Part shown: piece by piece, positions 1 to 64,000 of the stretch
Numbering within the stretch: the stretch's first letter is position 1
Layout of the letters: each line of letters starts with the position of its first letter
From: a virus
DNA: 64,000 bases
IMG/VR virus record: IMGVR_UViG_3300025597_000012
Reading direction: 5' to 3' (one strand)
Notes under the pieces: generated by a model
Told to the model about the DNA's origin: nothing
The model's input: the letters and a program-made list of their open reading frames with translations, nothing else
Databases searched by the model: none
Made by a program: the position numbers and the translations under genes

Positions 1-1979
1 GCTACACCAGTATAAGCATCAGCTAATACAAGTGTATAGTTTGTTGTTTGTGTTGTAAAAATAAGTGAATTAAGTCCTGATGTACCTGCTGTTCCAGATG
101 TACCTGAAACACCAGATGTACCATTTGCACCATTTACTCCACTTGTACCTGAAACACCAGATGTACCTGAAACACCAGATGTACCATTTACACCATTAAT
201 TCCAGAGGTTCCATTTACTCCAGAAGTTCCATCTATACCATTCACACCAGAAGTTCCATTTGCGCCATTTACTCCAGATGTACCATTTACACCATTTACT
301 CCAGATGTTCCTGAAACACCACTAGTTCCAGATACACCACTTGTGCCACTAATACCCGATGTTCCATTAATACCATTAACTCCAGAAGTTCCATTTATAC
401 CATTAACTCCAGATGTACCATCAATTCCAGAAGTTCCATTTATACCATTAACTCCAGATGTACCATCAATTCCAGAAGTTCCATTAACACCATTAATCCC
501 AGATGTGCCGTTAACTCCAGAAGTACCACTCACACCAGAAGCACCAGATGTACCACTAGTTCCATTTATACCAGATGTGCCACTAGTTCCATCAGCAGCA
601 GAACCATTAAGTACAATTCTACCTGCAAATCTATCATCAGGTGAAGAAGGTACTTTTATTGTTACATTATTAGCATCAGTCTGTTCTACTATATCAACAT
701 TTACTTGAACAGGAGTTGAAGTAGTATCCCATAATTCTATTGTATAATTGAAAGTACCAAGTAAGTGATTAAAAGTTATAAAATAATAACCACTTATAGG
801 GCCACTCCAATCTGTAGTTGCATTAAAAATTTGATTAAAGCCAATAGCAGAAAGTCCAGAAGTACCAGAACTACCGAAAAAAGTACCATCAAGTCCTGAA
901 GTTCCTGATACACCAGAAGAACCAGATGTTCCAGAAATTCCAGAAGTTCCTGAAACACCACTAGTTCCAGAAATTCCAGAAGTTCCTGATACTCCAGATG
1001 TACCTGAAACACCAGATGTACCATTGAGACCATTAATACCCGAAGTACCAGATAAACCTGATGTACCATTAATTCCAGAAGTACCATTTATTCCAGAAGT
1101 TCCTGACACACCACTAGTTCCAGATATACCGCTAGTACCATTAATACCATTTACTCCACTTGTACCTGAAATACCAGATGTACCATTTACACCACTTGTA
1201 CCATTTATACCTGACGTTCCGTTTACACCTGACGTTCCATTTATACCTGAAGTACCAGATGTGCCATTTACTCCAGAAGTTCCATTTATACCATTTGCAC
1301 CATTTATTCCAGAAGTTCCATTTACTCCACTTGTACCATTAACACCACTAGTGCCATTAACTCCACTAGTTCCTGAAGTTCCGTTCACACCTGAAGTTCC
1401 GTTCACACCTGAAGTACCAGATGTTCCAGATATACCACTAGTTCCTGATAGTCCACTAGTACCTGATACTCCACTAGTTCCAGATATACCGCTAGTACCA
1501 TTAATACCATTAATACCCGAAGTACCATTTATTCCAGAAGAACCGGAAGTACCATTAATACCTGAAGTTCCTGATATACCAGAACTACCTGAACTACCAC
1601 TAGTTCCAGATATACCGCTGGTACCATTTAATCCAGAAGTTCCTGATATACCAGAACTACCAGATGCACCAGATGAACCTGTAATTCCAGAAGTACCAGA
1701 TGAACCAAAAAATATACCATCAACACCTGAAGTACCAGATGAACCAAAAAATGTACCATCTAAACCAGATGTACCTGATATACCAGAAGAACCAGATGTA
1801 CCAGCTATACCAATACCAGAAGTACCTGAAGTACCTGCACTACCTCTACTACCAGAAGTACCTGCAGTACCAGAAGTACCTGCTGCGTATTTCAGAAGAT
1901 TAACCTCTTTCCAAAGATTATCAATCTGTTTTTCGCAGTTAGTTAAATTAAACTTTATATTTAAATCACCAAGACCCAT
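1..1979 (-). CDS. Collagen-like (Gly-X-Y repeat) fibre protein, 5' part only; the gene runs off the left edge of the window
   Basis: Minus-strand ATG at 1979 overlaps the TAA stop of the giant gene (TAATG). Manual translation gives MGLGDLNIKFNLTNCEKQIDNLWKEVNLLKYAAGTSGTAGTSG... with long GTSG(I/V)NG triplet runs, interrupted near 600-900 by a non-collagenous block (…IGFNQIFNATTDWSGPISGYYFITFNHLLGTFNYTIELWDTT…). No in-frame stop down to position 1, where checked. Confidence 0.7.
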   Translation of the reverse strand, partial: MGLGDLNIKFNLTNCEKQIDNLWKEVNLLKYAAGTSGTAGTSGSRGSAGTSGTSGIGIAGTSGSSGISGTSGLDGTFFGSSGTSGVDGIFFGSSGTSGITGSSGASGSSGISGTSGLNGTSGISGTSGSSGSSGISGTSGINGTSGSSGINGTSGINGINGTSGISGTSGVSGTSGLSGTSGISGTSGTSGVNGTSGVNGTSGTSGVNGTSGVNGTSGVNGTSGINGANGINGTSGVNGTSGTSGINGTSGVNGTSGINGTSGVNGTSGISGTSGVNGINGTSGISGTSGVSGTSGINGTSGINGTSGLSGTSGINGLNGTSGVSGTSGVSGTSGISGTSGVSGTSGISGTSGSSGVSGTSGLDGTFFGSSGTSGLSAIGFNQIFNATTDWSGPISGYYFITFNHLLGTFNYTIELWDTTSTPVQVNVDIVEQTDANNVTIKVPSSPDDRFAGRIVLNGSAADGTSGTSGINGTSGTSGASGVSGTSGVNGTSGINGVNGTSGIDGTSGVNGINGTSGIDGTSGVNGINGTSGVNGINGTSGISGTSGVSGTSGVSGTSGVNGVNGTSGVNGANGTSGVNGIDGTSGVNGTSGINGVNGTSGVSGTSGVSGTSGVNGANGTSGVSGTSGTAGTSGLNSLIFTTQTTNYTLVLADAYTGV

Positions 1980-53243: not shown

Positions 53244-53255
53244 TGGTTTTATTTG

Positions 53256-53331
53256 TGGAATCTATGGGCATCGAACCCATCTGGTATTCTGCTTGCAAGG
53301 CAGACGACCACTCCAAGCAGTCCCAGACCCC
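53256..53331 (-). tRNA. tRNA-Ala (TGC)
   Basis: Anticodon arm TCTGC-CTTGCAA-GCAGA; acceptor GGGGTCT/AGATTCC with G3:U70; unusual G8. Confidence 0.65.
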
Positions 53332-53335
53332 AAAT

Positions 53336-53456
53336 GCGGGGGACTACGGCCCCCTAAAGATGTCTTATTAGGTTTCATCTCTGTCCCGGATTACGCTAGC
53401 GAGCTACCGGGGAAACCACGCTACATACTTTCGTAGAGGTTATGCGGGTTACACTG
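53336..53456 (-). ncRNA. Unresolved ~120-nt structured spacer between tRNA-Ala and tRNA-Ile; hairpin-rich but no canonical cloverleaf found
   Basis: GGGGG-CCGTAGT-CCCCC and TAGCG…CGCTA stems. Confidence 0.2.
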
Positions 53457-53529
53457 TGCTCACGCTAAGACTCGAACTTAGACTCTCTCGCGTATCAGGC
53501 GAGAGCTTTAACCATTAAGCTACATGAGC
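53457..53529 (-). tRNA. tRNA-Ile (GAT)
   Basis: Anticodon arm CTCGC-CTGATAC-GCGAG; T-arm CTAAG-TTCGAGT-CTTAG. Confidence 0.8.
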
Positions 53530-53581
53530 TGGAGAGGGACAGGTTATTTATACCTTCAAAGGACTCCCTCAGACCTCTTCG

Positions 53582-53654
53582 TACTCTCAAAGGGATTCGA
53601 ACCCTAAATTGCCTGTGTATAAGACAGGAGTTTTCACCGTTAAACTATGAGAGC
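53582..53654 (-). tRNA. tRNA-Ile (TAT) (AUA-decoding, or a modified-Met type)
   Basis: Anticodon arm CCTGT-CTTATAC-ACAGG; acceptor GCTCTCA/TGAGAGT. Confidence 0.55.
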
Positions 53655-53659
53655 AAGTA

Positions 53660-53740
53660 AAGAGAGTGGGATTAGATTTCCGGGGATTGACCCAACCTGT
53701 GTCCTAATCTTATTTATCCTTGTACGGAGGCACACTCTCT
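53660..53740 (-). ncRNA. tRNA-like element (~80 nt) with 7-bp terminal pairing AGAGAGT/ACTCTCT but no canonical T-loop
   Basis: Pairing of the two ends is seen; no cloverleaf could be built. Confidence 0.25.
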
Positions 53741-53801
53741 TTGAATGGTCGGGCGGATTGCTTCTTTCAGCCTCAGACATTAATTACAATGTTGCCCGAT
53801 G

Positions 53802-53874
53802 CGGTCTATCACGGATTCGAACCGAGACTACCGCATAGACAGTGCGGCGTGTTCAACCATTACACTAATAGACC
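53802..53874 (-). tRNA. tRNA-Asp (GTC)
   Basis: Anticodon arm CCGCA-CTGTCTA-TGCGG; acceptor GGTCTAT/ATAGACC; overlaps the 3' end of the upstream ORF by ~15 nt. Confidence 0.8.
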
Positions 53875-54504
53875 ATAAACTTTATCCATGTTTGTTTTTC
53901 CGTTGCCATGAATAATCAACGGCTGAGTACCAGTTTTTTTATTAATCAGGATTCCATGTCTGTACTCAAAGTCATCTTCTGATTCAAAAGCTACAGATTG
54001 AAATAAATCACAGTTGGTATCCAACTTCATGTTATATTTATCTCTGTGCTTCAGATAAATTTCTGCTAAGTTAACTTGGTCATTATCACTATGTTTTATT
54101 GGATAATCCTCAAACATCTTGATAAATAAATCTACATTAACAAAGCATGCACCACCATTCAGATATTTCCAATCACTTTTTACTTTAGGATATTTTTCTG
54201 CCCAATCTGAATAAGGCCAGCATCCTTTTTCTGCGTTAAATATAATAGAATCAATATCATCTATTCTATCTATTGCTTGTTGCATTGTACCCAAAACTAT
54301 GATGTCATAAGTGTCTAGGATAAACAAGTGAGTACAATCTGTTTGCTTTGCATAGTTATAAGCGTTAACCATTTTACTACCATAAGCTTTATAGGTATCA
54401 GTCAGAATATCATAATTCCAATCAAACCTATCAAGTGAATCTTTAAACTGTTTAAACCCTTCGTGGTTTAAGTTGGTTGCTGTTCCTATTACGTTTACTT
54501 TCAT
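53860..54504 (-). CDS. Hypothetical protein, possible glycosyltransferase-like
   Basis: ORF; weak resemblance only. Confidence 0.35.
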   Translation of the reverse strand: MKVNVIGTATNLNHEGFKQFKDSLDRFDWNYDILTDTYKAYGSKMVNAYNYAKQTDCTHLFILDTYDIIVLGTMQQAIDRIDDIDSIIFNAEKGCWPYSDWAEKYPKVKSDWKYLNGGACFVNVDLFIKMFEDYPIKHSDNDQVNLAEIYLKHRDKYNMKLDTNCDLFQSVAFESEDDFEYRHGILINKKTGTQPLIIHGNGKTNMDKVYGLLV

Positions 54505-55289
54505 TTGAATGGATTATAATAAATAGATATTGTATTATTCTTATAACCCTGAACGGTTTCGTGATAGGTTTTCCATTGTTCAGAAGCATGGTTTTCTTTC
54601 CATTTCTGGTATGGTGTTCCTCCTGTATCTATGTGTTCTATCTCTATATGAGGTAAGAATACACTTTTAAACCCTGATAGTCTTGCTCTTATAGACATAA
54701 GGACATCATCAAATCCGTATAAACTAGGTTGGTATAAATAACCTATTTTATCAAGTAAAGCTGCTGAGTGCATAACACAAGTACCCATCACATGATTTAC
54801 TTGTTCTACTACTACCCATTTTTCACCGGGCTGGTGTTGAAGCATTAGTAATTCTGACTTATAAAAATCAGTTCTATTTGGTGATTCCCAACAATCTTTT
54901 CTTTTCAAGCCCACCTGTCCAATAGTATTGTCACGGCGAAAAACTTCTTCCATCTGTTCTATCCAACCTGATTGATGTATTACTACATCATCATCAATTT
55001 TAACACAATTCTCTCCGGGTTTTCTTTCTTTCCATGCTAAATTAATAGCTTCAGCAGTTCCTAGATTTTTATCATTCCAGATAACTTTATCAATTACAGA
55101 AAAAATTCCATTTGATTCAGAAAAATCTTCTATTATTTCTTTTGTTCTAGTAGTATAGGAATTTACAGAAAGTATTAATCTGTGTGAATCCCAGTCAACT
55201 GTTTTTTCTAAAGAATCTAATGTTTTATAAAGATATGTATCTTTATCATTATCTTCAGTACAATAAACAGCCATTGCTATTAAAGCCAT
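54501..55289 (-). CDS. Glycosyltransferase family 2-like; start moved to the internal Met at 55289 because the track start (55331) lies inside tRNA-Glu
   Basis: …NDKNLGTAEAINLAWKE…CVKIDDDVVI… (DxD) and YGFDDVLMSIRARLSGFK. Confidence 0.55.
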   Translation of the reverse strand: MALIAMAVYCTEDNDKDTYLYKTLDSLEKTVDWDSHRLILSVNSYTTRTKEIIEDFSESNGIFSVIDKVIWNDKNLGTAEAINLAWKERKPGENCVKIDDDVVIHQSGWIEQMEEVFRRDNTIGQVGLKRKDCWESPNRTDFYKSELLMLQHQPGEKWVVVEQVNHVMGTCVMHSAALLDKIGYLYQPSLYGFDDVLMSIRARLSGFKSVFLPHIEIEHIDTGGTPYQKWKENHASEQWKTYHETVQGYKNNTISIYYNPFK

Positions 55290-55304
55290 TGGTTTTATTT
55301 TTAG

Positions 55305-55379
55305 TATTCTGGAAGGGACTCGAACCCTCACTGACCACAGTGAAAGTGTGGTGACTTATTCCAATTTGTCAACCAGAAC
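55305..55379 (-). tRNA. tRNA-Glu (TTC)
   Basis: Anticodon arm CCACA-CTTTCAC-TGTGG; acceptor GTTCTGG/CCAGAAT. Confidence 0.75.
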
Positions 55380-55459
55380 ATTTGCAGTTTAGTCGGCCTC
55401 TACTATACCTAGGCCGCAGAGAGTATAGACTCGTATTCCATCTACTGCAAAAAGGAATT

Positions 55460-55530
55460 GAGCGAGTAGTGGGAGTCAAACCCACGCCTTAACCTTGGAA
55501 GGGTCATATGCTATCGTAACACTTCACTCG
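55460..55530 (-). tRNA. tRNA-Gly (TCC)
   Basis: Anticodon arm TGACC-CTTCCAA-GGTTA; T-arm GTGGG-TTTGACT-CCCAC; the 5' end overlaps the HNH stop. Confidence 0.6.
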
Positions 55531-55942
55531 CTAATGCTTCTTTATAATGTAAATCTCTATGACAATTAGCACATAAAACTTTACATTTATTTATTTCTTC
55601 TTGTAATAGTTTTTTAGAACATTTTGTTACAAGTTGTGATACTTCTGAATCTTTTTCATTTGGATTTTTATGATGAAAATCTAAAACCCAATATCTACTA
55701 TCTCCACATGATTCACAAGATAAAGTACTTTTGTATTCAGAAAACCATTTTCTAAAGTCTTGTTTATACTTTACTGCTTTTTGAATATACTTTTCTTTAT
55801 TTTTTTCGTAATGCTTTTTTCTATATTCTTTTTGACAAGCTTTACAATTACTTTGATAAAGTAAATTTTTTCTATCTTTTCTTGTAGCAAACTCCGTTAA
55901 AGGAAGTTCTTTTTTACAAATTGTACATTTTTTAATTTTCAT
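55511..55942 (-). CDS. HNH homing endonuclease (leaderless; start at MKIKKCTICKK)
   Basis: CESCGDS…DFHHKNP…LCANCHRDLH; the predicted promoter places the TSS on the ATG, so the N-terminal extension in the ORF track is rejected. Confidence 0.7.
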   Translation of the reverse strand: MKIKKCTICKKELPLTEFATRKDRKNLLYQSNCKACQKEYRKKHYEKNKEKYIQKAVKYKQDFRKWFSEYKSTLSCESCGDSRYWVLDFHHKNPNEKDSEVSQLVTKCSKKLLQEEINKCKVLCANCHRDLHYKEALASEVLR

Positions 55943-55947
55943 ATATG

Positions 55948-55979
55948 TAAATATACGAAAAATAATTGATACTTCCAAA
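55948..55979 (-). promoter_or_regulatory. Promoter TTTG-N20-TATATTTA for the HNH endonuclease
   Basis: Extended consensus copy. Confidence 0.5.
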
Positions 55980-56001
55980 TTTTATTTTATTTGGAAGGAT
56001 G

Positions 56002-56073
56002 TTGCGTAGGCTGGATTCGAACCAGCGACCTAATGGTTATGAGCCATCCGAGCTACCTCTGCTCTACCACGCA
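56002..56073 (-). tRNA. tRNA-Met (CAT), elongator-like
   Basis: Anticodon arm GATGG-CTCATAA-CCATT; T-arm GCTGG-TTCGAAT-CCAGC. Confidence 0.8.
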
Positions 56074-56183
56074 ATTTATCCCCGGACTAGTGCGCCTTCC
56101 TCCGGGGGTGTTATTGCTTATCTTCTTCGTCAATAACTAAACCCTTTTGGGTCGGCCAACGGATACTATCCGCAGGGGGGGGG

Positions 56184-56396
56184 CTATCTTAATATCTTTA
56201 AACCGCTGGTAGCAGTCCAAAGAACATAATTGTTTTTCTTTACTTCACCCATTACTATTTTCTTTTCATAATTAGTAACTCGTGAAGTAGGAAGGGTAAC
56301 CAACCAGTGAATGAATTTTTCTCGTTCACCTTTGTATTTTTTAATACTGGCTATCCTACGGTATTCCTTACCGTCTTTTATGACTGTATCATTCAT
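56184..56396 (-). CDS. Small basic hypothetical protein
   Basis: ORF; its TAG stop directly abuts a G9 homopolymer. Confidence 0.35.
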   Translation of the reverse strand: MNDTVIKDGKEYRRIASIKKYKGEREKFIHWLVTLPTSRVTNYEKKIVMGEVKKNNYVLWTATSGLKILR

Positions 56397-56397
56397 G

Positions 56398-56472
56398 CGG
56401 GACAGGATGGACTCGAACCAACGACCTTAGAGTTAACAGCTCTCTGCTCTCGACCAACTGAGCTACAGTCCC
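56398..56472 (-). tRNA. tRNA-Asn (GTT)
   Basis: Anticodon loop CTGTTAA; D-arm GCTC..GAGC. Confidence 0.7.
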
Positions 56473-56513
56473 CTTTTGTATTTTTAACTCCACGCAGAAT
56501 ACTAACTGACCTG

Positions 56514-56587
56514 AAGCCCTGAAAGGAGTCGAACCTTCATCTAATAGTTTAGAAAACTATGACATTCATCCATTATGCTACAGGGCC
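56514..56587 (-). tRNA. tRNA-Arg (TCT)
   Basis: Anticodon arm ATAGT-TTTCTAA-ACTAT; acceptor GGCCCTG/CAGGGCT. Confidence 0.8.
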
Positions 56588-56590
56588 ATG

Positions 56591-56665
56591 TACATCTGGA
56601 ATGAGTCGAACATTCGGTCTCCGTCTTGTAAGGGCGGTGCTTTCAACCAACTAAGCTACAGATGC
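56591..56665 (-). tRNA. tRNA-Val (TAC)
   Basis: Anticodon loop CTTACAA; acceptor GCATCTG/CAGATGT. Confidence 0.75.
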
Positions 56666-56720
56666 AAATATAATACTTTATTTAAAGCTTACCAAATAAA
56701 GTATGTTAAAGTTTTGTTAG

Positions 56721-56791
56721 AGGACAAGATAGGAATCGAACCTACGCTGGAGGTGTTGCAGACCTCTGCCTTACCGCTTGGCTACTTGTCC
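56721..56791 (-). tRNA. tRNA-Cys (GCA)
   Basis: Anticodon arm GAGGT-CTGCAAC-ACCTC; acceptor GGACAAG/CTTGTCC. Confidence 0.8.
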
Positions 56792-56794
56792 ATG

Positions 56795-56868
56795 TGCTAC
56801 CGAAGGGACTCGAACCCATAACCTCCTGATTAAAAGTCAGAAGCTCTACACTATTGAGCTACGATAGC
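56795..56868 (-). tRNA. tRNA-Lys (TTT)
   Basis: Anticodon loop CTTTTAA; acceptor GCTATCG/CGGTAGC. Confidence 0.75.
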
Positions 56869-56871
56869 AAA

Positions 56872-56898
56872 TAAAAAACCCTCCTTTAAGGGGAGGGC
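56872..56898 (-). terminator. Intrinsic terminator (CCCUCC…GGAGGG then U6AUUU) 4 nt upstream of tRNA-Lys; attenuator terminator of array D
   Basis: Hairpin plus T-run. Confidence 0.7.
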
Positions 56899-56920
56899 TT
56901 CAGTAATATTCGTGGTTAAA

Positions 56921-57013
56921 TTAAACCAGTTCTATATCAGACATAGCTCTCCTGATGATGGTATCTCTACCCACCTCTTTACAAATCATATTTATGGCTA
57001 TGTTCTTTCTCAT
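56921..57013 (-). CDS. Leader peptide MRKNIAINMICKEVGRDTIIRRAMSDIELV (30 aa) of tRNA array D
   Basis: ATG 11 nt from the predicted TSS. Codons AGA AAG AAC…AAT…TGT AAA…GTG…AGA…AGG AGA…GTT are read by the downstream Arg-TCT, Lys-TTT, Asn-GTT, Cys-GCA and Val-TAC tRNAs (13 of 29 codons). Three ATA codons also match tRNA-Ile(TAT). Confidence 0.55.
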   Translation of the reverse strand: MRKNIAINMICKEVGRDTIIRRAMSDIELV

Positions 57014-57030
57014 TTTAAATTTAAGTTATG

Positions 57031-57062
57031 CAAACTTACGACAAATATTTGGATTTTCCAAA
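57031..57062 (-). promoter_or_regulatory. Promoter TTTG-N20-TAAGTTTG for the array D leader
   Basis: Extended consensus copy. Confidence 0.55.
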
Positions 57063-57080
57063 TTTATTAATAGAAAATAA

Positions 57081-57281
57081 TTAAATCTTTTGTGAATATC
57101 TTTTCCAGCCTGTAACTTTATTGATAGCGTCTACTAGTTTATTGTAATCTTTACGCCAGTTTTTATAAGCTTTGGAGCGTTTATCTGATGGCTCCTTAGC
57201 GGCCTGTTCAGCTAAAAGTTCATCAGCATGACCTACGTTTACAATAATTATTTCTTTATCGTCAATCATTACTCTTTCCAT
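57081..57281 (-). CDS. Small hypothetical protein
   Basis: ORF coupled to its upstream gene. Confidence 0.4.
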   Translation of the reverse strand: MERVMIDDKEIIIVNVGHADELLAEQAAKEPSDKRSKAYKNWRKDYNKLVDAINKVTGWKRYSQKI

Positions 57282-57607
57282 TACTTTATTCTTTTAATAA
57301 GTTCACCACTAAGCTCCTCATAAATTCTTGAGAATTTTTCATAACCCATTCTTATTAAGAACATTCCGTAGTTTAAAAATATCTTTACGTGCTCATCATC
57401 TTCTTTACCATAAGCTACAATATCATTTAAATTGACTACTAATGGTTTATATGTAGTTTCTGAATCATCTTCATCTTCTTCATCTTCTTCATATTTATCA
57501 CCTTTAATCAGACGTTTAGCTATTCTTGCAGCTTTGTCTTCTTCTGATTCATTGTTCTTGTCTTTAAAGACTCTTACTTTTACAAAAAATTCTACGCGTT
57601 GTGCCAT
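57281..57607 (-). CDS. Acidic hypothetical protein
   Basis: ORF; EEDEEDEDD tract. Confidence 0.45.
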   Translation of the reverse strand: MAQRVEFFVKVRVFKDKNNESEEDKAARIAKRLIKGDKYEEDEEDEDDSETTYKPLVVNLNDIVAYGKEDDEHVKIFLNYGMFLIRMGYEKFSRIYEELSGELIKRIK

Positions 57608-57620
57608 GTTTTTTATTTTG

Positions 57621-57736
57621 CAGTATGGGAAGGATTCGAACCTTCATAGTTTAATGTATCGTTCACTAGGAATACTTAATACTTATAAACTGCCACCGAG
57701 ACTAGGTGGTGCGTCTGCCAGTTCCGCCACCGTACT
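57621..57736 (-). tRNA. Atypical 116-nt tRNA-like gene: Leu-like D-arm (TG-GCG-GAACTGGCAGA-CGC), canonical T-arm (GAAGG-TTCGAAT-CCTTC), paired acceptor, ~46-nt hairpin insertion in the variable region, non-canonical anticodon loop UAGUCUC
   Basis: Own promoter whose predicted TSS coincides with the 5' end. Confidence 0.4.
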
Positions 57737-57743
57737 ATAAGTA

Positions 57744-57774
57744 CAAAGATAGTGAAAAATTTTGAGATTACAAA
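57744..57774 (-). promoter_or_regulatory. Promoter TTTG-N19-TATCTTTG driving the atypical tRNA-like gene
   Basis: Predicted TSS falls at the tRNA-like 5' end (57736-57737). Confidence 0.5.
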
Positions 57775-57776
57775 AT

Positions 57777-58544
57777 TTATAATCGACTTCCTAGAAAAAT
57801 TAATCCTCCAAATTCCAGAGCTTTTAACAAAATATTAGGTTTTTTAACAGGAGAATAGATTACTGAATTCTGTCCCATTACGTTAATAAATTGTGAACTA
57901 TGCAATACCTGAACCTGAAATTTAGGTTTAGAGAAAGGATGGAAAAATCCTCTTTTAAGTTTTACTACTCTAATATATTGAGTATCAGCTATTGAGATAG
58001 TTCCAAGATGAAATCCTGTCTTTGTGATTACTCCTGAAAGTCTTATACCTTCCTGATATTTATCTTCAACGCTATCTAAAGTTACAGCTTTAGGAACCTT
58101 AATCATATTGTTCAGGACGTAGTTATATAAAGAGGCTGTGTCTTTATATTTACTTAATTCCTTTCTAACACTGTCTATGGTAGCTGTGTCCTTATAAGGA
58201 ATGAAGGTATTATCTATATGAGCTGAGAGTTGTGCTTCGTAGTAGAATGTGACATCCTTAATTTTCTTCTCATACTTTTTAGTCAGATTAAACTTCTGGT
58301 CAGTAAGGTCTTTAATCTCAGCTTGATTATCTGTGATAATAGAAGTCTGAGTATAAACGGTTTGTTTTAACTCATTTTTAATACTGTCTAATTTTTGGTT
58401 AGCTAAGGTCAAAGAATCCAATGCCACGTTCTGACGAGCTACTTGGGATTCGTAATTACACTTGTTAAGAAAAAGACAAAGAAATAATCCAGCTATTACT
58501 GAGAAATAAATGTAGTCTTTGAAATTAATTTTAGGGAATGTCAT
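57777..58544 (-). CDS. Membrane-anchored coiled-coil protein
   Basis: N-terminal TM helix (SVIAGLFLCLFL); ORF. Confidence 0.5.
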   Translation of the reverse strand: MTFPKINFKDYIYFSVIAGLFLCLFLNKCNYESQVARQNVALDSLTLANQKLDSIKNELKQTVYTQTSIITDNQAEIKDLTDQKFNLTKKYEKKIKDVTFYYEAQLSAHIDNTFIPYKDTATIDSVRKELSKYKDTASLYNYVLNNMIKVPKAVTLDSVEDKYQEGIRLSGVITKTGFHLGTISIADTQYIRVVKLKRGFFHPFSKPKFQVQVLHSSQFINVMGQNSVIYSPVKKPNILLKALEFGGLIFLGSRL

Positions 58545-58604
58545 GTTTTTGATTTGTTCAAATATAAGGCATTTGGATACCCAAATCCAAATCTTTTAAG
58601 TTAA

Positions 58605-59090
58605 TTAAATGTTAAGGAGTCTACAGATATAGCGGAAGGCAGATTTATCTTTACATTCTCCTTCAAAAAGTATTTTGTCACTATTATGTATTTTAAAAAT
58701 ACTTAGATATGTAGTGTCATCTTCATCTTCTTTTTGTCCATTGAAAAAATGAATAATTCTATTTTCTTTCTCCCAAAGGTATTCTCTCCAATGAATACAT
58801 CTCCATCCCTCAGCTATTATATCTTCCTTGGTAAGATAGGGTACTCTAATAAGTCCTCTTTCCAAATTGGAGGCTAAAGTTGGGCTTCCGTCTGATAAGA
58901 ATGTTTCTTTAACCCAGTTGTCCTCAAGTACCCAGTCTGCTACAGGTTGGGGATAATCCATTTTAATTAGCTGTTCCTTAGGTATATATCTAAGGAAATT
59001 TTGTTCATACTCGTACCCGTAAATAAAGTCTTCCAGTTTAGGAGTGAAATACTTACTGTCCATTGTCTTTGGTTTTATGTGAGCCGTCAC
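58605..59090 (-). CDS. Hypothetical protein
   Basis: ORF only. Confidence 0.45.
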   Translation of the reverse strand: MTAHIKPKTMDSKYFTPKLEDFIYGYEYEQNFLRYIPKEQLIKMDYPQPVADWVLEDNWVKETFLSDGSPTLASNLERGLIRVPYLTKEDIIAEGWRCIHWREYLWEKENRIIHFFNGQKEDEDDTTYLSIFKIHNSDKILFEGECKDKSAFRYICRLLNI

Positions 59091-59271
59091 AGAAGATACC
59101 GTCTTTACTTTTCCCGCAGCGGCACAGGGCTATTGTTCCGTTTTTTGAAGTATTGAAGATTCCTTGGATACCTTGATTAGGTTGTTTATCCTTAGGGTGA
59201 AGTTCAATTTCGTAGTCGGTGCATGCTATAAGAGCAGGGCCACCTTCGAGCAGTTTAATCTTTAATGCCAT
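59053..59271 (-). CDS. CDGSH iron-sulfur domain (mitoNEET-like) protein
   Basis: CRCGKSKDGIFCDGSH matches C-X-C-X2-S-X5-C-D-G-S-H. Confidence 0.65.
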   Translation of the reverse strand: MALKIKLLEGGPALIACTDYEIELHPKDKQPNQGIQGIFNTSKNGTIALCRCGKSKDGIFCDGSHKTKDNGQ

Positions 59272-59295
59272 AATATATTGGTTTTTTTAGGGGTT

Positions 59296-59544
59296 TTACT
59301 GTTTTGATGTCTTCATTGATTGATTATAAGAAGGGCCAAAAAAGGAGAAGCTTGGCTTAATGTAGGAGGAGCCTTTAACGGCGTTGCCTTCCTTCTCGAT
59401 AAACTCAACAGCTTGTCTGGCCTCTTCGTTATCCCTAGAGTCAACTACAGGGATATTAAAAGTCTCACCTTTGGTATTGGTTACCTTCAGTTGGTAGGAG
59501 CGTTCTCCGGGCGTTGTAATCTTTTCGATTTTCGTCTTATTCAT
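59296..59544 (-). CDS. Hypothetical protein
   Basis: ORF only. Confidence 0.4.
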   Translation of the reverse strand: MNKTKIEKITTPGERSYQLKVTNTKGETFNIPVVDSRDNEEARQAVEFIEKEGNAVKGSSYIKPSFSFFGPSYNQSMKTSKQ

Positions 59545-59884
59545 TTTCAGGCGTTTTAACGGGGTTAATTGAATCTGGTGTCTCGGTCTGGGGTTCTTGG
59601 GTAGTGTCGGTTAAATCGACCGTAATAGCTTCAGGGATGGTCATAGAGGCTAACTGTTCAGGAGTAATCCTAGATAAAGGGAAAACTCCATTAGGAGTAT
59701 GAACGAATATATGGTTCTCTAGGATGGCATCCTCTATATGTAATCTGCGGCATACCTGTACATAATCTATAAAGGCTTTATAGTCGGAAGTGTACTGGAT
59801 TGTATAGGTCTTGTCAATTACACCACCTGCCTGCCCAACACTATAAGCAAATCCGGGTATTAGTTTGTCTGTAATCATAACCAC
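59537..59884 (-). CDS. Hypothetical protein (first gene of the leftward transcription unit)
   Basis: ORF; candidate promoter …TAAATTTG… about 20-35 nt upstream at 59905-59945. Confidence 0.45.
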   Translation of the reverse strand: MVMITDKLIPGFAYSVGQAGGVIDKTYTIQYTSDYKAFIDYVQVCRRLHIEDAILENHIFVHTPNGVFPLSRITPEQLASMTIPEAITVDLTDTTQEPQTETPDSINPVKTPENE

Positions 59885-60433
59885 AAAGGTAGTGTTTTTC
59901 TCTCACTTAACCAAATTTAATTTGTTAAAATAGGCCCCCGGTATTTAACATTTGAAAAAGATACCCCCGTACTTACCTAAAGGGGAAATAAGGGGAGGCT
60001 CTCACTCTTAGGAACCCGGTTATAACTCCTCCCCCGCGTTCCCTTAGTCCGTGACCTATCCCCCTGCTTAAAGCCGTAACGAATTGAGAACCAGCGACTT
60101 ACAACTATTTTCAAAGTTTTTGCCCTGAATAGTTGGAAACGGTCAGCAGGATGACCTACTTTTGTCTGGTAATCCTACCACACAGCCCAAAGGGGCAAAG
60201 CAAAGTAAGGCAAGCCGCAAGGCCATCCCTGAACTGTTCGTGGCGTGATTACCCTGCATATAAACTATAGGCAAACTTTGCCTACAGTCCAAAGTATGGA
60301 ATGTCGGAATAACTGATGTTTATTGGTGTCTATGTAGCATCCAACTCAGGTGTTAGTCTACATAGGATTAAACAGTAGGCCAGTTGACCAGTCGGGGTAT
60401 TTTTATACCTAACTGCAAACCATTGGTTAATCC

Positions 60434-60457
60434 AAAAAACCCGTCCTTTACGCGGGC
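60434..60457 (-). terminator. Possible minus-strand terminator inside the GC-rich region
   Basis: CCCGC-GUAAAGGA-CGGG then U6. Confidence 0.3.
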
Positions 60458-61397
60458 TTGCTAAAAACAGGCTCTTAAATTGGACTCCCTAAGGGGATAT
60501 GCTTATACGATTGTGTCTGCTCATGCAGGTACATCGGTCAAGGGCAAAGTGTTACCGTCATCAGAATACAGGAACAAACCTGTATACGGTAGGGGTATAT
60601 CCCAACGCAGCCGGCTTGGTACGGACTTGGCAAGTCCAAACCATGACAATACTCGGTCAAACAACCCTGCTGTCCTAAATGGGCATCATATAGGCAGGGA
60701 CTGCGAAGCAACGTAGTGGACAACTCCCTGCTTAGGGTAGGGGTATATAGTGTCCGGTGCGTAGTGTAAAGGTGGCTATTGTTACCTGAAAGCGTAACGA
60801 AAGGAATAAACTGCAAAGTTTTTGAGGCTCGTCATGTACTAACGGGCTATTTTGCGTGTAGAATAATATTCAACCACGTTTCTGAATAGTACAAAGTAAG
60901 GTAAGCTACCTGCGAAAACGGTCTAAACGGGCTAATTGCACCCGCAAGGATTAGACTAAACTCACAATTATTTCTATAATTGAGTATAAAGCGGAAGCAC
61001 TCTTGTCATTTAGTGACAGGACTAATCTGCAAGTAAGGTATGAGGGTGGCCGCAAGGTTGCACCCTCATGTCGGGGTCAAATCCGGCGGAAGGCTCATAA
61101 CTTTCCGCCTTACCACATTTGGACACGGACGGATAACACAATAGGGGATGGGGCACGTCAAAGCACTACTAATGTAGGCGAGCACGGCACTCATTCCCTT
61201 GTTGTGTTAAAGTTGTGTTACATTTTACGTTATGTAAAGCCAGCAGTGTGCCGCGAGGTTCTTTTGCTGGCTCAATGTACTGAAAGAGAACCGTTTGCGG
61301 GTTGTTCCGTATGGGTCGGTATGTCCATATCTTTTGCTCGTAAATTGTTGATTTTCAATGTTTCAAAGGCTCTCATTAGTTATTACTGGGTCTTTAT

Positions 61398-61436
61398 GGG
61401 GGGTGTGTCGGTACTGTCCTGCACACCCCTTTTCTA
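61398..61436 (+). terminator. Plus-strand intrinsic terminator (GGGGUGUG…CACACCCC then UUUUC)
   Basis: 8-bp GC-rich stem plus T-run ending the ORF-poor region. Confidence 0.55.
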
Positions 61437-61474
61437 TTAGGATTATCGTGCCTCTTATGGCATAATGATACAAT

Positions 61475-61669
61475 ATGGCTGAACTTACTCTTGCACAGTT
61501 GGTTGAAAGGTGTTATGCCTCTAATACCGAACTGAAACCTCACGTTAAAAGTACGTGGCGTAGTCCTGAACCGTGTGAATTCGGGTGGCATATTGAAGAG
61601 GCTACCTGTAATGACGGCAGCGTATGGGAGTGGATACCGGAAGACCATATCTGGGAACTTAAAAGATAA
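61475..61669 (+). CDS. Small hypothetical protein (GC-rich rightward operon)
   Basis: First of five tightly spaced plus-strand ORFs with ~48% GC codon usage. Confidence 0.4.
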   Translation: MAELTLAQLVERCYASNTELKPHVKSTWRSPEPCEFGWHIEEATCNDGSVWEWIPEDHIWELKR

Positions 61670-61671
61670 GT

Positions 61672-61920
61672 ATGCCTTTACCTAATGACCTTCACCCTAT
61701 CCTTAGGACTTGTTGGCTTGAGGATATTGTGCCTGTTTGTAAAAAAGTGTGGCAAAGTGAAGGTACACAAAGATGGCACAATAAGACAGATGCCAAAGAT
61801 GTAATATCTAAGGCATTACAAGCCATGTATCCATATAAAATTAGCAATCTGGAGATAAACTTTGTTTACTTTCAGGCTATGCAGTATGTGGATGACCTTG
61901 AGAAATCATTAAATTCCTAA
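61672..61920 (+). CDS. Small hypothetical protein
   Basis: Operon member. Confidence 0.4.
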   Translation: MPLPNDLHPILRTCWLEDIVPVCKKVWQSEGTQRWHNKTDAKDVISKALQAMYPYKISNLEINFVYFQAMQYVDDLEKSLNS

Positions 61921-61987
61921 TATGCACAAAGCAATTCGGATTTTTATCCATGCCATGTTTGGCATTTTCTTCTAAACCAATACATCT

Positions 61988-62257
61988 ATGCGTATCCAAT
62001 TTGGATGCACTCAAACTGTCTTGGATAATACAGGACGGCTTGTGTGCTATCGTGGCTCTTTACCTGTTCATAAGGGTTTGGCACATAGTAATCCTGCTAT
62101 TAAATTGATTAAGGGCAAGGCATTCTATATGCCTGAGAGTCAGGACTTTGAAGAGTTATGGAGATTATTGGATGATATGAGGATAGTTAACCACAAGTTT
62201 AAGATAAAAGAACTGAACCAGCGCATTAAACAAATTAAAAAGAAATCAACGTGGTAA
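61988..62257 (+). CDS. Small hypothetical protein with basic C-terminus
   Basis: Operon member. Confidence 0.4.
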   Translation: MRIQFGCTQTVLDNTGRLVCYRGSLPVHKGLAHSNPAIKLIKGKAFYMPESQDFEELWRLLDDMRIVNHKFKIKELNQRIKQIKKKSTW

Positions 62258-62340
62258 ACACAATCATTCACATCTGTGAGGCGGGGACTATTCATGTCCT
62301 TACCGCTTCGGGGCTTGCTCGTAAATAATAGGCTCAATAT

Positions 62341-62730
62341 ATGCACGTTAGAATCCATTGGAAAGTGGATAGTTCGGGCGTGGCTAAAAAGGATGAAAAA
62401 TCTTTATCCTTCAAGCACAGGCTCGGAACTAAACCGCTATCCTTGAATCAAAGCGTGGAGTTTACGTTAGACGGCAAGATTAACAAGACGTGGAAACGTA
62501 ACTTCACTAAGAAAATCAACGCACAGTTCCGGCGCAATTCTACTGCTGTCTTATTCATTGACGGTAAACGGATTGAGCACGGGACAGGACTGCGTGATGC
62601 AGGTTCTTTTGCCAACGAGATTGCCAACATTTTGTTGGAACTCCGGCATACCCACAAAGAAACTTTTGATGCAGTTTCCAACCGTAAAGGTAAGGAGATT
62701 GCAGGGAGTATAGCTAACGCACTGGCTTAG
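62341..62730 (+). CDS. Hypothetical basic protein, 129 aa
   Basis: Operon member. Confidence 0.45.
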   Translation: MHVRIHWKVDSSGVAKKDEKSLSFKHRLGTKPLSLNQSVEFTLDGKINKTWKRNFTKKINAQFRRNSTAVLFIDGKRIEHGTGLRDAGSFANEIANILLELRHTHKETFDAVSNRKGKEIAGSIANALA

Positions 62731-62763
62731 TAGTGCTATTTTAAACGCATAAAACAAAAACAA

Positions 62764-63351
62764 ATGCGTACAACTAACAAAGTAAGCGTGAGATTCTCAC
62801 AGGACTTGTCTTATGTCGGGCCTTCCCGCAAAGGCAAGGACGGCGTAGTCAAACCGGGCAGGCTCATTACTTTCGGTAATGAGATGGTATTCTCGGATGA
62901 GACTGAAGAGGAAGTAACAGCCGAAAACGTAGGTTCGTGGGCTGTGGCTAAAGTCGGCCACGCCTTGAAACTGATGCGTTTGCAGGGCAAAACCGGTTTC
63001 AAAATCAGCAAGCCTATCGTGATGGAAGTAACCATCAACGGTAAGCGTGTTGAATTGAGTTACTGGAAAATGTCACTGAACCTTGACCGTATTGAGCGTA
63101 TCATGGGTAAATCACCCGAATTGCTCGCGTATGCCTTTACCGGCTACAAACACAACGTGTCAAAGTCAACTGCAAAAGACGGTTTCGCGTTCCTCGCCAA
63201 TGCTGCAAGTGGTAAAACACTGCTGGCTCCCGCTGTTACCAACAACCCGCTGCTGCCCGCTGTCAACACAGAAGGACTGGAAGAACTGGAAGTTGAGGAA
63301 ACTCAACCCGTAGTTACTGACAACCTGCCTGTGGATGAAGAAGCAAAGTAA
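62764..63351 (+). CDS. Hypothetical protein, 195 aa, acidic C-terminal tail
   Basis: Operon member; followed by a terminator-like hairpin. Confidence 0.5.
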   Translation: MRTTNKVSVRFSQDLSYVGPSRKGKDGVVKPGRLITFGNEMVFSDETEEEVTAENVGSWAVAKVGHALKLMRLQGKTGFKISKPIVMEVTINGKRVELSYWKMSLNLDRIERIMGKSPELLAYAFTGYKHNVSKSTAKDGFAFLANAASGKTLLAPAVTNNPLLPAVNTEGLEELEVEETQPVVTDNLPVDEEAK

Positions 63352-63613
63352 GCGGTACCGGCCGGAACGAATACCGTGCCTATTGTAAGGTAGGTTAGCC
63401 CTTAGTAGGTGCTAAGTATATCGTTCCCGCTGCCTGTATGTTTATCCGGAAACTAAAACACCGGAAACGATCAAAAATCCTTGTACCTCCCGTAATTATG
63501 CGGCAGGTAGGGTGTGCTGTAGCTGCCAACTGTAATCAGTAAGACGGCAAGCATTATGTATAATCAGCAGGAGGGTGGTAGCAAAAATGGGTAGCCAACC
63601 CATGATACCTAAA

Positions 63614-63651
63614 CAGTCGTTAAGTGTGCCTGTCCCGACTGCTGATTTTTT
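63614..63651 (+). terminator. Weak terminator candidate (CAGUCG…CGACUG then U6)
   Basis: Stem with a long loop plus T-run. Confidence 0.3.
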
Positions 63652-64000
63652 AACAAAAGATTATTCTTATTTAGTCTTATATCTTAGGCAACGACTATAA
63701 CAAGTAATAAGGAATCAGTCACCTCAGATAATATCTCCTATGATATAGACTAATGAGTATATAAAGAATACCTCGCGTCTGTAATCTATCCACTAACTGT
63801 CGTAAAGTGGGCACCTGTATGTTAGCCTGACGAATGGCATACAGAAAGCTACCTATGTGTGCTCGTTGGCACATCAATGTTAAGGGGACAGGGTTATGGA
63901 CGCGAGGTATTTTTTTTGCTATGGGTGTTACTCGTAGTGGTTCAACTCCACTAAGCAAAGCATGAAGCACATCCTCGCCTTTCACTACAAGGCAAATGAA

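What the first reader, a model, noticed from the sequence alone, without database searches (positions are those of the whole stretch)
59900..61440. 1.5-kb GC-rich, ORF-less, highly structured region at the strand-switch point: candidate large ornate ncRNA
GC jumps from ~32% to ~47%. There is no ORF of note on either strand. It is dense in extended hairpins, several capped by GCAA (GNRA) tetraloops (CC-GCAA-GG at ~60216, ~60941, ~61046), with long stems such as TGAGGGTG…CACCCTCA and GGCGGAA…TTCCGCC. Internally repeated motifs include TAGGGGTATAT twice, CGTAACGAA twice and CAAAGTTTTTG twice. It ends at a clean plus-strand terminator (61398-61436). Large ornate ncRNAs of phages (GOLLD- and ROOL-like) have this size and GNRA-rich character and tend to lie near tRNA arrays. 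Alternatives are a replication origin or packaging region, or a group I/II intron remnant.
Basis: inference. Interest (0 to 1): 0.8.

Follow-up and report, generated by a model that had tools for sequence, protein, structure and literature searches.

The report
Structured non-coding unit heading phage early genes
At the point where a large crAss-like phage genome switches gene direction lies a 1.6-kb protein-free stretch made of a conserved control module and a strongly folding segment that probably gives an early non-coding RNA of unknown function, unrelated to any catalogued RNA family.

Summary
Window 59885-61474 has no credible ORF under any genetic code. It is GC-richer (44.8% vs 33.9%), folds far better than shuffles, and ends in a plus-strand terminator. 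The GOLLD/ROOL/intron reading is not supported: Rfam 15 gives nothing even at E<=10.

The region has two parts. (1) 59885-60125 is a control module conserved as sequence, not as a fold. It holds a leftward Bacteroidota-type promoter (TTTG-N20-TAnnTTTG) and a single-copy box, CCCRGTTATAACTnCTCCCCC, with a second C-run 29-30 nt on. The box persists in relatives whose terminase is only 49% identical. (2) About 60125-61436 is a lineage-specific body. Its 3' 540 nt give z = -7.0 on the plus strand, with G·U-containing helices and three CCGCAAGG hairpins.

Seven related phages, Lbo-JY46 included, keep a gene-free gap of 0.5-2.0 kb at their strand switch; five of them end it in a clear rightward terminator. 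Their bodies do not align, so covariation could not be tested.

The closest precedent is the abundant early lncRNAs of crAss-like phage phi14:2, one of which I find to be a tmRNA.

Best reading: an early, rightward, structured non-coding transcript. Transcription is inferred, and function is unknown.

The parts
59884..59915 (-). Leftward host-type promoter: TTTG-N20-TACCTTTG (Bacteroidota -33/-7 geometry), directly upstream of the first leftward gene. Its upstream half is the conserved 'box 0' (ACCAAATTTAATTTG on the plus strand).
   Evidence: The pattern TTTG-N19-21-TAnnTTTG occurs 12 times in the window against 1.7 expected. Ten copies are on the minus strand upstream of minus-strand genes or tRNA arrays, including this one. 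The two boxes keep the same 28-nt start-to-start spacing in L015, L023, L027, L053 and Lbo-JY46. A 22-nt copy of box 0 lies at 49167-49188, before a tRNA array.
59935..59978 (+). Two C5-led direct repeats 29 nt apart (CCCCCGGTATTTAAC and CCCCCGTACTTACC), followed by G4 runs at 59982-59998. They are possible iteron-like protein sites.
   Evidence: Sequence; positions of the C5 and G4 runs. Function is inferred only.
60014..60036 (+). Box 1: CCCGGTTATAACTCCTCCCCCGC, with a palindromic core GTTATAAC. It occurs once per genome and is the most conserved element of the locus.
   Evidence: Shared with L015, L016, L024, L027, L053, L050, L055 and Lbo-JY46, and diverged in L022 and L023. It is single-copy in the window and in each locus. 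No conserved RNA pairing surrounds it.
60056..60068 (+). Box 2: CCTATCCCCCTGC. Its C-run starts 29-30 nt after the C-run of box 1, while the sequence between them varies.
   Evidence: The spacing is 29-30 nt in win, L015, L016, L024, L027 and L053, and the same in L055.
60112..60122 (+). CAAAGTTTTTG (box 3), repeated exactly at 60814-60824. Similar AAAGTTT(T)G elements lie 50-70 nt after box 2 in L016, L024 and L050.
   Evidence: Its role as a promoter-like element is an inference. The full -33/-7 geometry is not met on the plus strand.
60125..61436 (+). Body of the putative non-coding transcript. It is ORF-free and GC-rich, and it folds better on the plus strand. The 5' end (transcription start) is not determined.
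   Evidence: For 60040-61440 the MFE is -479.5 (plus) against -430.3 kcal/mol (minus), with 67 against 46 G·U pairs. Sliding-window z-scores favour the plus strand from 60450 onward. Three GNRA hairpins with stems >=4 bp lie on the plus strand and none on the minus strand.
60948..61084 (+). Closed multi-branch domain (GGAUU/AAUCC) that encloses three hairpins: 60967-60980; 60991-61030 with 61001-61021; and 61037-61072, a 12-bp stem topped by a GCAA-capped extension.
   Evidence: Base-pair probabilities are 0.91-0.97. The helices contain G·U pairs.
61085..61109 (+). Hairpin GGCGGAAGG / CUUUCCGCC, 9 bp.
   Evidence: P = 0.97.
61134..61209 (+). Long hairpin closed by the 10-bp stem UAACACAAUA / UGUUGUGUUA. 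The polymorphism 61151 G>A turns a G·U pair into A-U.
   Evidence: (I2).
61238..61272 (+). Hairpin AGCCAGCAG / UUGCUGGCU, whose inner part is capped by GCGA.
   Evidence: P = 0.97; sequence.
61399..61436 (+). Rightward intrinsic terminator: a 10-bp G+C-rich stem followed by UUUUCU. It lies 38 nt before the first rightward ORF (ATG at 61475).
   Evidence: Equivalent rightward terminators close the gap in L016, L022, L024 and Lbo-JY46.
61003..61440 (+). A 145-codon TTG-started open frame, judged spurious.
   Evidence: It has no Pfam or PHROG match. Its only hit is its own 99% copy. It overlaps the best-determined helices and the terminator.

Best explanation
The 1.6-kb gap is the divergent control region of a large crAss-like phage, followed by a non-coding transcription unit at the head of the rightward (probably early) gene block.

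Shown: the left 30 nt carry a host-type (Bacteroidota -33/-7) promoter that fires leftward. Next come a single-copy, clade-conserved box 1 and box 2, which are conserved as sequence and not as a fold. After them comes a lineage-specific body whose 3' ~500 nt form stable helices on the plus strand. These helices contain G·U pairs and GNRA caps, and the body ends in a rightward intrinsic terminator just before the first rightward ORF.

Inferred: box 1 and box 2 form the site from which rightward transcription is launched or controlled. That could be a promoter for a phage-borne polymerase, or an operator. The body would be released as a stable RNA of about 1.3 kb (at minimum a ~0.5-kb structured 3' domain), made very early and accumulating. 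This would resemble the two abundant, persistent early lncRNAs measured in crAss-like phage phi14:2.

Because the body changes completely between related phages while the architecture stays, I infer that it acts in trans on a fast-changing host target, as a decoy or sponge for a host nuclease or defence factor or as a translation-related mimic, rather than as a conserved ribozyme-like machine. This last step is speculative.
For: Non-coding.

Strand-specific folding: z = -6.9 and -7.0. The plus strand beats the minus strand by 43-49 kcal/mol. There are 8 G·U pairs in 57 confident long-helix pairs on the plus strand and 0 of 33 on the minus strand. CCGCAAGG occurs three times on the plus strand; the only other copy in 64 kb lies within the span of a tRNA gene, on its sense strand.

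Rightward terminator.

Architecture in relatives: gene-free gaps of 1253-2008 nt lie at the strand switch of L016, L022, L023 and L024, with about 1.6 kb in Lbo-JY46 and 503 nt in L015. Clear rightward terminators close five of the seven loci examined, the window included. L016's gap folds with z = -7.7.

Leftward host-type promoters are enriched 7-fold, and none lies on the plus strand from 59885 to 64000. This fits a different transcription mode for the rightward block.

Precedent: phi14:2 long intergenic regions are transcribed rightward, early, persistently and above most mRNAs, with function undetermined (bioRxiv 10.1101/2020.03.07.982082).

Polymorphisms: the two that fall in predicted pairs both keep the pair.
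Against: No transcript data exist for this phage, and the 5' end is unknown.

No diverged homologue of the body could be aligned, so there is no covariation support. A covariance model of the best domain finds nothing significant in relatives.

Only 27% of body nucleotides have a partner at P>=0.8, and the 5' 400 nt of the body are poorly determined. Between 60000 and 60450 the minus strand has the lower z-scores.

GNRA-hairpin enrichment is modest: 3 observed against 0.9 +/- 1.0 expected.

L015 has only ~370 nt after box 1, so a long body is dispensable.

A virion RNA polymerase was not identified in the window.

Box 1 and box 2 also occur in a non-crAss integrative element (L055), so they are not a dedicated RNA 5' end.

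The phi14:2 lncRNA regions show no sequence similarity to this one.
Confidence: 0.5

Rival explanations
1. The region is a DNA-level element: a replication origin and/or a genome-end or packaging region. The conserved boxes and C5 repeats would be protein-binding sites, the A/T-rich tract an unwinding element, and the hairpins incidental or acting as DNA.
For: The box 1/box 2 module is conserved as sequence with fixed spacing and no conserved fold. C5-led repeats recur with a 29-nt period, and A/T runs lie beside them in relatives. The cumulative GC skew turns near 57-60 kb. Several assemblies break inside or beside the locus: at window 61051, 61129 and 61411, and L027 ends 72 nt after box 1. 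The Lbo-JY46 record starts and ends inside the equivalent gap. The module also occurs in an integrative element.
Against: A DNA palindrome would fold equally on both strands. Here the plus strand is 43-49 kcal/mol better, and its long helices contain 8 G·U pairs against 0 on the minus strand. A rightward terminator closes the unit in five loci. The skew turn coincides with the change of gene strand, so it is not independent evidence. There is no terminal or dispersed repeat of the region in the window. This rival explains the 5' 240 nt better than it explains the 1.3-kb body, and the two readings can coexist.
Confidence: 0.2
2. The region is a long cis-acting leader of the rightward operon rather than a free RNA. 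It could be an attenuator or antitermination leader. It could also be the first DNA to enter the cell, whose transcription helps draw the genome in, as in the T7 and N4 entry models.
For: It sits immediately upstream of the first rightward genes. No separate host-type promoter lies between the terminator and those genes. Length and sequence are free to vary between relatives, as expected for a spacer-like leader.
Against: The terminator is strong (10-bp G+C-rich stem plus a U-tract, P = 0.98), which favours a discrete product. The exceptional folding of the 3' domain (z = -7.0) is not needed for a mere entry spacer. In phi14:2 the intergenic RNAs behave differently from the neighbouring early mRNAs, since they persist.
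Confidence: 0.15
3. The region is a decayed or frameshifted protein gene, or non-functional filler left by recombination in a hypervariable part of the genome.
For: The neighbouring small genes evolve very fast: the 115-aa neighbour has no homologue beyond its own species. No flanking protein is shared with Lbo-JY46. The bodies are unrelated between relatives.
Against: No frame is open under any code, and stop codons are spread over all frames. There is no protein homology. Filler would not fold at z = -7 with strand asymmetry, nor be kept at 1.2-2.0 kb with a terminator across relatives.
Confidence: 0.05
4. The region is a member of a catalogued large RNA family: GOLLD, ROOL, a group I or II intron, tmRNA or RNase P.
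For: Its size, its GNRA hairpins and its nearness to tRNA arrays resemble GOLLD and ROOL contexts. The phi14:2 counterpart region does contain a tmRNA.
Against: No Rfam 15 model matches at its gathering score or at E<=10 in 59700-61600. ARAGORN finds no tmRNA. There is no intron-encoded protein and no split host gene.
Confidence: 0.02

Closest known systems
Early long non-coding RNAs of crAss-like phage phi14:2 (g004-g005 and g005-g006 intergenic regions; Drobysheva et al., bioRxiv 10.1101/2020.03.07.982082)
   Same: Both lie in a crAss-like phage. Both are ~1.7 kb free of genes inside the rightward early block (phi14:2 2905-4601). In phi14:2 the orientation of transcription is rightward, matching the strand of folding and the terminator here. 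The function of both is unknown.
   Different: There is no sequence or model similarity. phi14:2's region lies ~3 kb into the early block rather than at the strand switch. It is AT-rich and folds unremarkably (z = -0.2 and -1.6), and half of it is a tmRNA. Transcription was measured there and is only inferred here.
GOLLD (RF01998) and ROOL (RF03087) large ornate RNAs
   Same: Large size, a phage-associated context, nearby tRNA genes, and GNRA-capped helices.
   Different: There is no covariance-model match at all. There is no conserved architecture among relatives. Well-determined structure covers only ~330 nt plus a terminator.
Divergent control (immunity or early) regions of phages, with operators between back-to-back promoters
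   Same: A single-copy palindrome-containing box sits between leftward and rightward units, next to a recognisable host-type promoter. In L055 the same box follows an XRE-type HTH gene.
   Different: No repressor gene was identified beside it here. Such regions are normally 100-300 bp and are not followed by 1.3 kb of structured non-coding sequence.
Non-coding left end of T7-like and N4-like genomes (entry and early-promoter region)
   Same: It is a gene-free stretch at the start of the early genes, possibly read by a non-host or specially recruited polymerase.
   Different: The genome ends were not mapped here. N4 early promoters are short DNA hairpins present in several copies, whereas box 1 is single-copy and shows no conserved hairpin.

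Membership tests
GOLLD RNA (RF01998) | A match to the family covariance model at or above its gathering score | tested here: not met
   No hit at the gathering score over the whole window, nor at E<=10 over 59700-61600 on either strand.
ROOL RNA (RF03087) | A match to the family covariance model | tested here: not met
   no hit.
Group I / group II introns | A match to the intron core models; interruption of a host gene; often an intron-encoded endonuclease or reverse transcriptase | tested here: not met
   There are no Rfam hits. The flanking ORFs are complete, divergent and unrelated. No ORF in the region has a significant Pfam match.
tmRNA | A tRNA-like domain plus a tag reading frame, detectable by ARAGORN or RF00023 | tested here: not met
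   ARAGORN finds 21 tRNAs and no tmRNA in the window. Rfam finds nothing. There is no T-arm-like element in the window's gap. As a positive control, the same tools find the phi14:2 tmRNA.
Large ornate structured RNA (generic sense) | A conserved multi-helix architecture supported by covariation across homologues | tested here: inconclusive
   No alignable diverged homologues were obtained. The copies found are >=99.67% identical, and more distant relatives do not align. Single-sequence evidence is strong for the 3' domain only.
phi14:2-type early lncRNA of crAss-like phages (operational class) | A long gene-free stretch in the rightward early block of a crAss-like phage | tested here: met
   crAss-like identity rests on the terminase, portal, capsid and muzzle proteins. 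The gap lies at the head of the rightward genes.
phi14:2-type early lncRNA of crAss-like phages (operational class) | Abundant rightward transcription from the earliest time point that persists late | not testable with these tools
   No expression data are available. The only indirect evidence is the plus-strand folding bias and the terminator.
phi14:2-type early lncRNA of crAss-like phages (operational class) | Sequence or structure homology to the phi14:2 regions | tested here: not met
   blastn against 50,697 phage records, which include phi14:2, gave no match. Model R1 has no hit in L026.
Bacteroidota primary-sigma promoter (for the leftward edge) | TTTG, then 19-21 nt, then TAnnTTTG, upstream of a gene on the same strand | tested here: met
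   59884-59915 (-) matches. The motif is enriched 7-fold in the window and lies before minus-strand genes and tRNA arrays. The consensus itself comes from established knowledge and was not derived here.
Replication origin | Iterons plus an A/T-rich unwinding element, beside an initiator gene, at a skew turning point | tested here: inconclusive
   C5-led repeats and A/T runs are present, and the skew turns nearby. No initiator gene was identified, and the skew turn coincides with the change of gene strand.

The most novel reading that the evidence does not exclude
Large crAss-like phages of this clade carry, at the very start of their early genes, a 'cargo slot' for big structured RNAs. A conserved single-copy launch site (box 1/box 2) and a terminator frame it, and its content is swapped or rewritten between lineages: a GNRA-hairpin domain here, tRNA-like minihelices in L016 and L053, and a tmRNA in the analogous region of phi14:2. 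These RNAs would be the first products of infection. They would act as fast-evolving decoys or mimics against host defence or translation-control factors, forming an RNA-based counterpart of protein anti-defence islands.
Probability: 0.2. Interest if true: 0.8.

Novelty: new variant of a known kind. Interest (0 to 1): 0.55.

Why it matters
Long, abundant early RNAs of crAss-like phages have been seen once by RNA-seq (phi14:2) and were left unexplained.

This locus shows that a whole clade of large crAss-like phages keeps a framed non-coding unit at the head of the early genes. It supplies a conserved sequence handle (box 1/box 2) with which such loci can be retrieved from any assembly. It also shows that the RNA content is lineage-specific.

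If the transcripts are real, they are candidates for RNA-based host takeover or anti-defence in one of the most abundant phage groups associated with Bacteroidota. The window's 3' domain is a compact, very stable target for structure probing.

If they are not, the box module is still a new candidate promoter, operator or origin element for phages whose early transcription signals are unknown.

Tried and rejected
1. Internal ~700-nt duplication. Collinear motif pairs suggested it. It is rejected because the only local alignment came from the overlap of my own slices.

2. Near-matches to TAGGGGTATAT at window 1124-1494. These lie in a collagen-like Gly-X-Y coding repeat and are unrelated.

3. 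Alternative genetic codes. None opens a frame.

4. A stem enclosing box 1 with compensatory changes. I saw it by eye in four loci, but the stems are in different registers and RNAalifold predicts 0 pairs, so I dropped it.

5. Flanking-protein anchors (115 aa and 195 aa) in IMG/VR gave nothing. The 115-aa protein has no homologue outside its own species.

6. The pseudo-protein trick with the 145-codon frame returned only a self hit, and its contig could not be retrieved.

7. Box-probe scans gave 37 loci (1 viral, 26 metagenome, 10 genome). Most lie inside long ORFs and are chance matches. Only L027, L047/L053, L050, L055 and perhaps L039 are credible.

8. Collinear word chains and a shared k-mer survey of the bodies were not above shuffles, apart from the 5' boxes.

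9. Covariance model R1 of 60948-61109. It gave only weak hits (E >= 0.28 over 98 kb). The three that fall at the right place in L016, L023 and L024 have poor alignments.

10. DGR template or terminal repeat. The region has no similarity elsewhere in the window or in 8 kb downstream.

11. Identifying the virion RNA polymerase. There is no DFDxD motif, no PDB match and no annotation support. The 1652-aa ORF is the muzzle protein, and the 3959-aa ORF is a polyvalent ART-domain protein.

12. Literature. I found no paper on Lbo-JY46 and none linking Crassvirales to ornate RNAs.
Full report
**What is in the sequence.** The finding sits in the 1590-nt gap (window 59885-61474) between a leftward gene (59537-59884) and the first rightward gene (61475-61669). 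The window is part of a large crAss-like phage genome. Its terminase, portal and major capsid proteins match the crAss-type PHROGs. Its terminase is 49% identical to that of Leptolyngbya phage Lbo-JY46 and 31% identical to those of Cellulophaga phages phi17:2 and phi4:1 and of the epsilon-group phage csAssE-Sib. The 1652-aa ORF is the homologue of the csAssE-Sib 'muzzle' protein. All 21 tRNA genes lie on the minus strand between 48.4 and 56.9 kb.

**The region does not code for protein.** The longest frame is a TTG-started 145-codon ORF. Stop codons of all three kinds are spread over all six frames, and reassigning TGA, TAG or TAA opens no gene-sized frame. The ORFs have no significant Pfam match and no PHROG match. 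The 145-codon frame finds only its own 99% copy among 5.8 billion proteins. Gene callers on eight independent metagenomic copies also left the stretch empty.

**The region folds unusually well, mostly in its 3' part and on the plus strand.** The tool's own z-scores are -2.9 for 59900-60899 and -6.9 for 60500-61440. In 300-nt windows the plus strand reaches -4.4 to -5.9 between 60450 and 61500, against -1.4 to -4.3 for the minus strand and about -0.5 for a terminase coding control.

- For 60900-61440 the plus-strand MFE is -200.8 kcal/mol, against -155.2 +/- 6.5 for 100 dinucleotide shuffles (z = -7.0; none reached it) and -157.3 for the minus strand.
- That domain has six confident helices of at least 8 bp, which contain 8 G·U pairs. 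The minus strand has four such helices with no G·U pair.
- The confident helices cluster at 60948-61272, and the terminator is at 61399-61430.
- CCGCAAGG, a GCAA tetraloop with its closing pairs, occurs three times in the region, always on the plus strand. The only other copy in 64 kb lies within the span of the tRNA-Tyr gene, on its sense strand. In all there are 4 copies against 0.35 expected.
- The signal is uneven. Only 27% of body nucleotides have a partner at P>=0.8. The 5' 400 nt of the body are poorly determined, and between 60000 and 60450 the minus strand scores lower.

**It matches no catalogued RNA.** Rfam 15 reports only tRNAs at gathering scores. A permissive scan of 59700-61600 gives three chance-level matches and nothing for GOLLD, ROOL, introns, tmRNA or RNase P. 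The region matches nothing in 50,697 phage records.

**Relatives.** The flanking small proteins are useless as anchors. The eight contigs that carry them are the same phage at >=99.67% identity. A PF04308 protein 6.6 kb away is conserved and gave a graded series of relatives, from which I fetched contigs.

| Locus | Gene-free gap at the strand switch (nt) |
|---|---|
| L023 | 2008 |
| L016 | 1746 |
| window | 1590 |
| Lbo-JY46 | about 1590 (spans the record ends) |
| L022 | 1455 |
| L024 | 1253 |
| L015 | 503 |

In Lbo-JY46 the unit runs across the ends of the record and includes a doubtful 'CDS 1..714'. L016's gap folds with z = -7.7. Clear rightward terminators close the gap in the window, L016, L022, L024 and Lbo-JY46.

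The bodies do not align. blastn, nhmmer, collinear word chains and a k-mer survey found nothing beyond the 5' end. A covariance model of the window's best domain has no significant hit in any relative. Covariation, the decisive test for a structured RNA, therefore could not be run. Among the seven polymorphic sites in the eight copies, the two that fall in predicted pairs both preserve pairing. This agrees with the structure but is weak evidence.

**The conserved part is a 5' control module.** Comparing the gaps exposed a ~21-nt box, CCCRGTTATAACTnCTCCCCC (window 60014-60036). It is shared even with Lbo-JY46 and occurs once per genome. A second C-run follows 29-30 nt later, across variable sequence. 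RNAalifold predicts no conserved pairing around the boxes, so they are best read as a protein-recognised site.

At the left edge, the minus strand reads TTTG-N20-TACCTTTG, the geometry of a Bacteroidota primary-sigma promoter. This pattern occurs 12 times in the window against 1.7 expected. Ten copies are on the minus strand before minus-strand genes and tRNA arrays, and none is on the plus strand from 59885 to 64000. Relatives keep the same two boxes at the same spacing. The leftward genes therefore use host-type promoters and the rightward block does not.

Scanning public collections with the box retrieved a few more non-coding members: L027, L047/L053 and L050. It also retrieved one case in a Chitinophagaceae MAG (L055). 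There the same box geometry follows an XRE-type HTH gene in what looks like an integrative element beside a tRNA gene. So the module is not exclusive to this phage clade, which again argues for a DNA-level control site.

**Precedent.** In crAss-like phage phi14:2, two long intergenic regions in the early block are transcribed rightward above the level of most mRNAs. They appear from the first time point and do not decline, and the authors left their function open. Early genes there are transcribed by the virion RNA polymerase, and middle and late genes by the host enzyme. The phi14:2 region (2905-4601) is now free of CDS in RefSeq. I find that its second half is a tmRNA: RF00023 at 46.0 bits against a gathering score of 47, E = 2.6e-16, and ARAGORN gives the tag GSSVQKLAMVA. 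T-loop-capped, tRNA-like helices occur near the 3' end of the bodies of L016 and L053, but not in the window. The phi14:2 regions fold unremarkably, so the window's 3' domain is unusually stable for this kind of locus.

**Interpretation.** The best-supported model is a divergent control region followed by a rightward non-coding transcription unit, whose product is a stable structured RNA made at the start of infection.

- Shown: the absence of coding capacity; the strand-specific folding; the terminator; the leftward promoter; the conserved boxes; and the recurrence of the architecture.
- Inferred: that the unit is transcribed; that box 1 and box 2 launch or control that transcription; that a virion polymerase is involved; and any function.

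I could not identify a virion RNAP in this 64-kb window, although the related epsilon group has a very divergent one. A replication-origin or genome-end role for the 5' module is a live rival and could coexist with the RNA. Assemblies tend to break in or near the locus.

**Novelty and score.** This is not a member of any defined RNA family, and the 'ornate RNA' label is not earned. It is a new, sequence-unrelated variant of a phenomenon reported once, the early lncRNAs of a crAss-like phage. What is added here is a clade-wide architecture and a conserved sequence handle. Interest is moderate (0.55): the anatomy is clear and testable, but expression and conservation of the fold are unproven.

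Noticed in passing
L026 (Cellulophaga phage phi14:2, NC_021806) 4031-4502, plus strand: One of the two 'long non-coding RNAs of unknown function' reported for phi14:2 contains a tmRNA. RF00023 scores 46.0 bits (gathering score 47), E = 2.6e-16, over the full model. ARAGORN calls a tmRNA with the tag peptide GSSVQKLAMVA*.
   Followed up: partly
window 48254-59915, minus strand: Ten copies of the Bacteroidota-type promoter geometry TTTG-N19-21-TAnnTTTG lie before minus-strand genes and tRNA arrays (12 in the window against 1.7 expected). This points to a Bacteroidota host and to host-RNAP transcription of the tRNA and structural block.
   Followed up: partly
window 1-1979, minus strand: A collagen-like Gly-X-Y repeat protein (GTS/GIN/GVS triplets) runs off the start of the window. 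The 337-codon plus-strand ORF at 1024-2037 is its mirror artefact.
   Followed up: no
window 1979-13858, minus strand: A 3959-aa polyvalent virion-type protein. It has an ADP-ribosyltransferase domain (PF18760 ART-PolyVal, residues 1805-1954) and an HELAH zincin motif. Its N-terminal 830 residues are homologous to the 2208-aa 'structural protein' of csAssE-Sib (E = 2e-18). It has no DFDxD motif and no PDB match, so whether it is the virion RNAP is open.
   Followed up: partly
L010 24323-25313 and L009 1-852 (Leptolyngbya phage Lbo-JY46, PP438436.1): The GenBank record is cut in the middle of the equivalent non-coding unit. Its first feature, 'CDS 1..714', lies between box 1 and the unit's terminator (record ~730-770) and has no PHROG match, so it may be a mis-call. 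This 'cyanophage' also keeps the Bacteroidota-type leftward promoter boxes.
   Followed up: partly
L016 ~3185-3225 (minus strand); L053 oriented 1155-1236: T-loop-capped helices lie near the 3' end of the relatives' non-coding bodies. L016 has a continuous ~12-bp minihelix with a GGTTCGATTCC loop. L053 has a 7-bp acceptor-like stem plus a T-arm (GGCGGTTCGAATCCGCT). Neither ARAGORN nor Rfam calls them.
   Followed up: partly
L024 10845-10917: A tRNA with anticodon CTA (amber suppressor; ARAGORN labels it Pyl) in a related phage. It hints at TAG reassignment in that lineage. No suppressor tRNA is present in the window.
   Followed up: no
L055 (MAG Chitinophagaceae, JADLHL010000069.1), oriented 7040-7700: The same box 1 and box 2 geometry occurs outside crAss-like phages. 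It lies directly after an XRE-type HTH ORF, ~230 nt from a tRNA gene, in a context with an excisionase-like protein, which looks like the edge of an integrative element.
   Followed up: partly
window 61051, 61129, 61411 and 59471-59474: Several independent assemblies of this phage end inside the region: L003 at 61051, L005 at 61129, and L007 and L008 at 61411. Two ~1.9-kb contigs (L007, L008) consist of little more than this locus. The IMG/VR contig behind L027 ends 72 nt after box 1. This suggests a coverage or variant discontinuity, or genome ends, near here.
   Followed up: no
window 60927: All eight metagenomic copies have an extra G here relative to the window. This is either a 1-nt deletion or an error in the window sequence.
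   Followed up: no
window 59053-59271 (-) and 52785-53243 (-): A small zf-CDGSH iron-sulfur-type protein (72 aa; the Pfam label comes from the contig look-up) lies three genes from the switch. A PF04308 RNaseH-like (YkuK/DUF458) protein sits amid the tRNA arrays. It is conserved across the clade at 47-79% identity and is a good anchor for finding relatives.
   Followed up: partly
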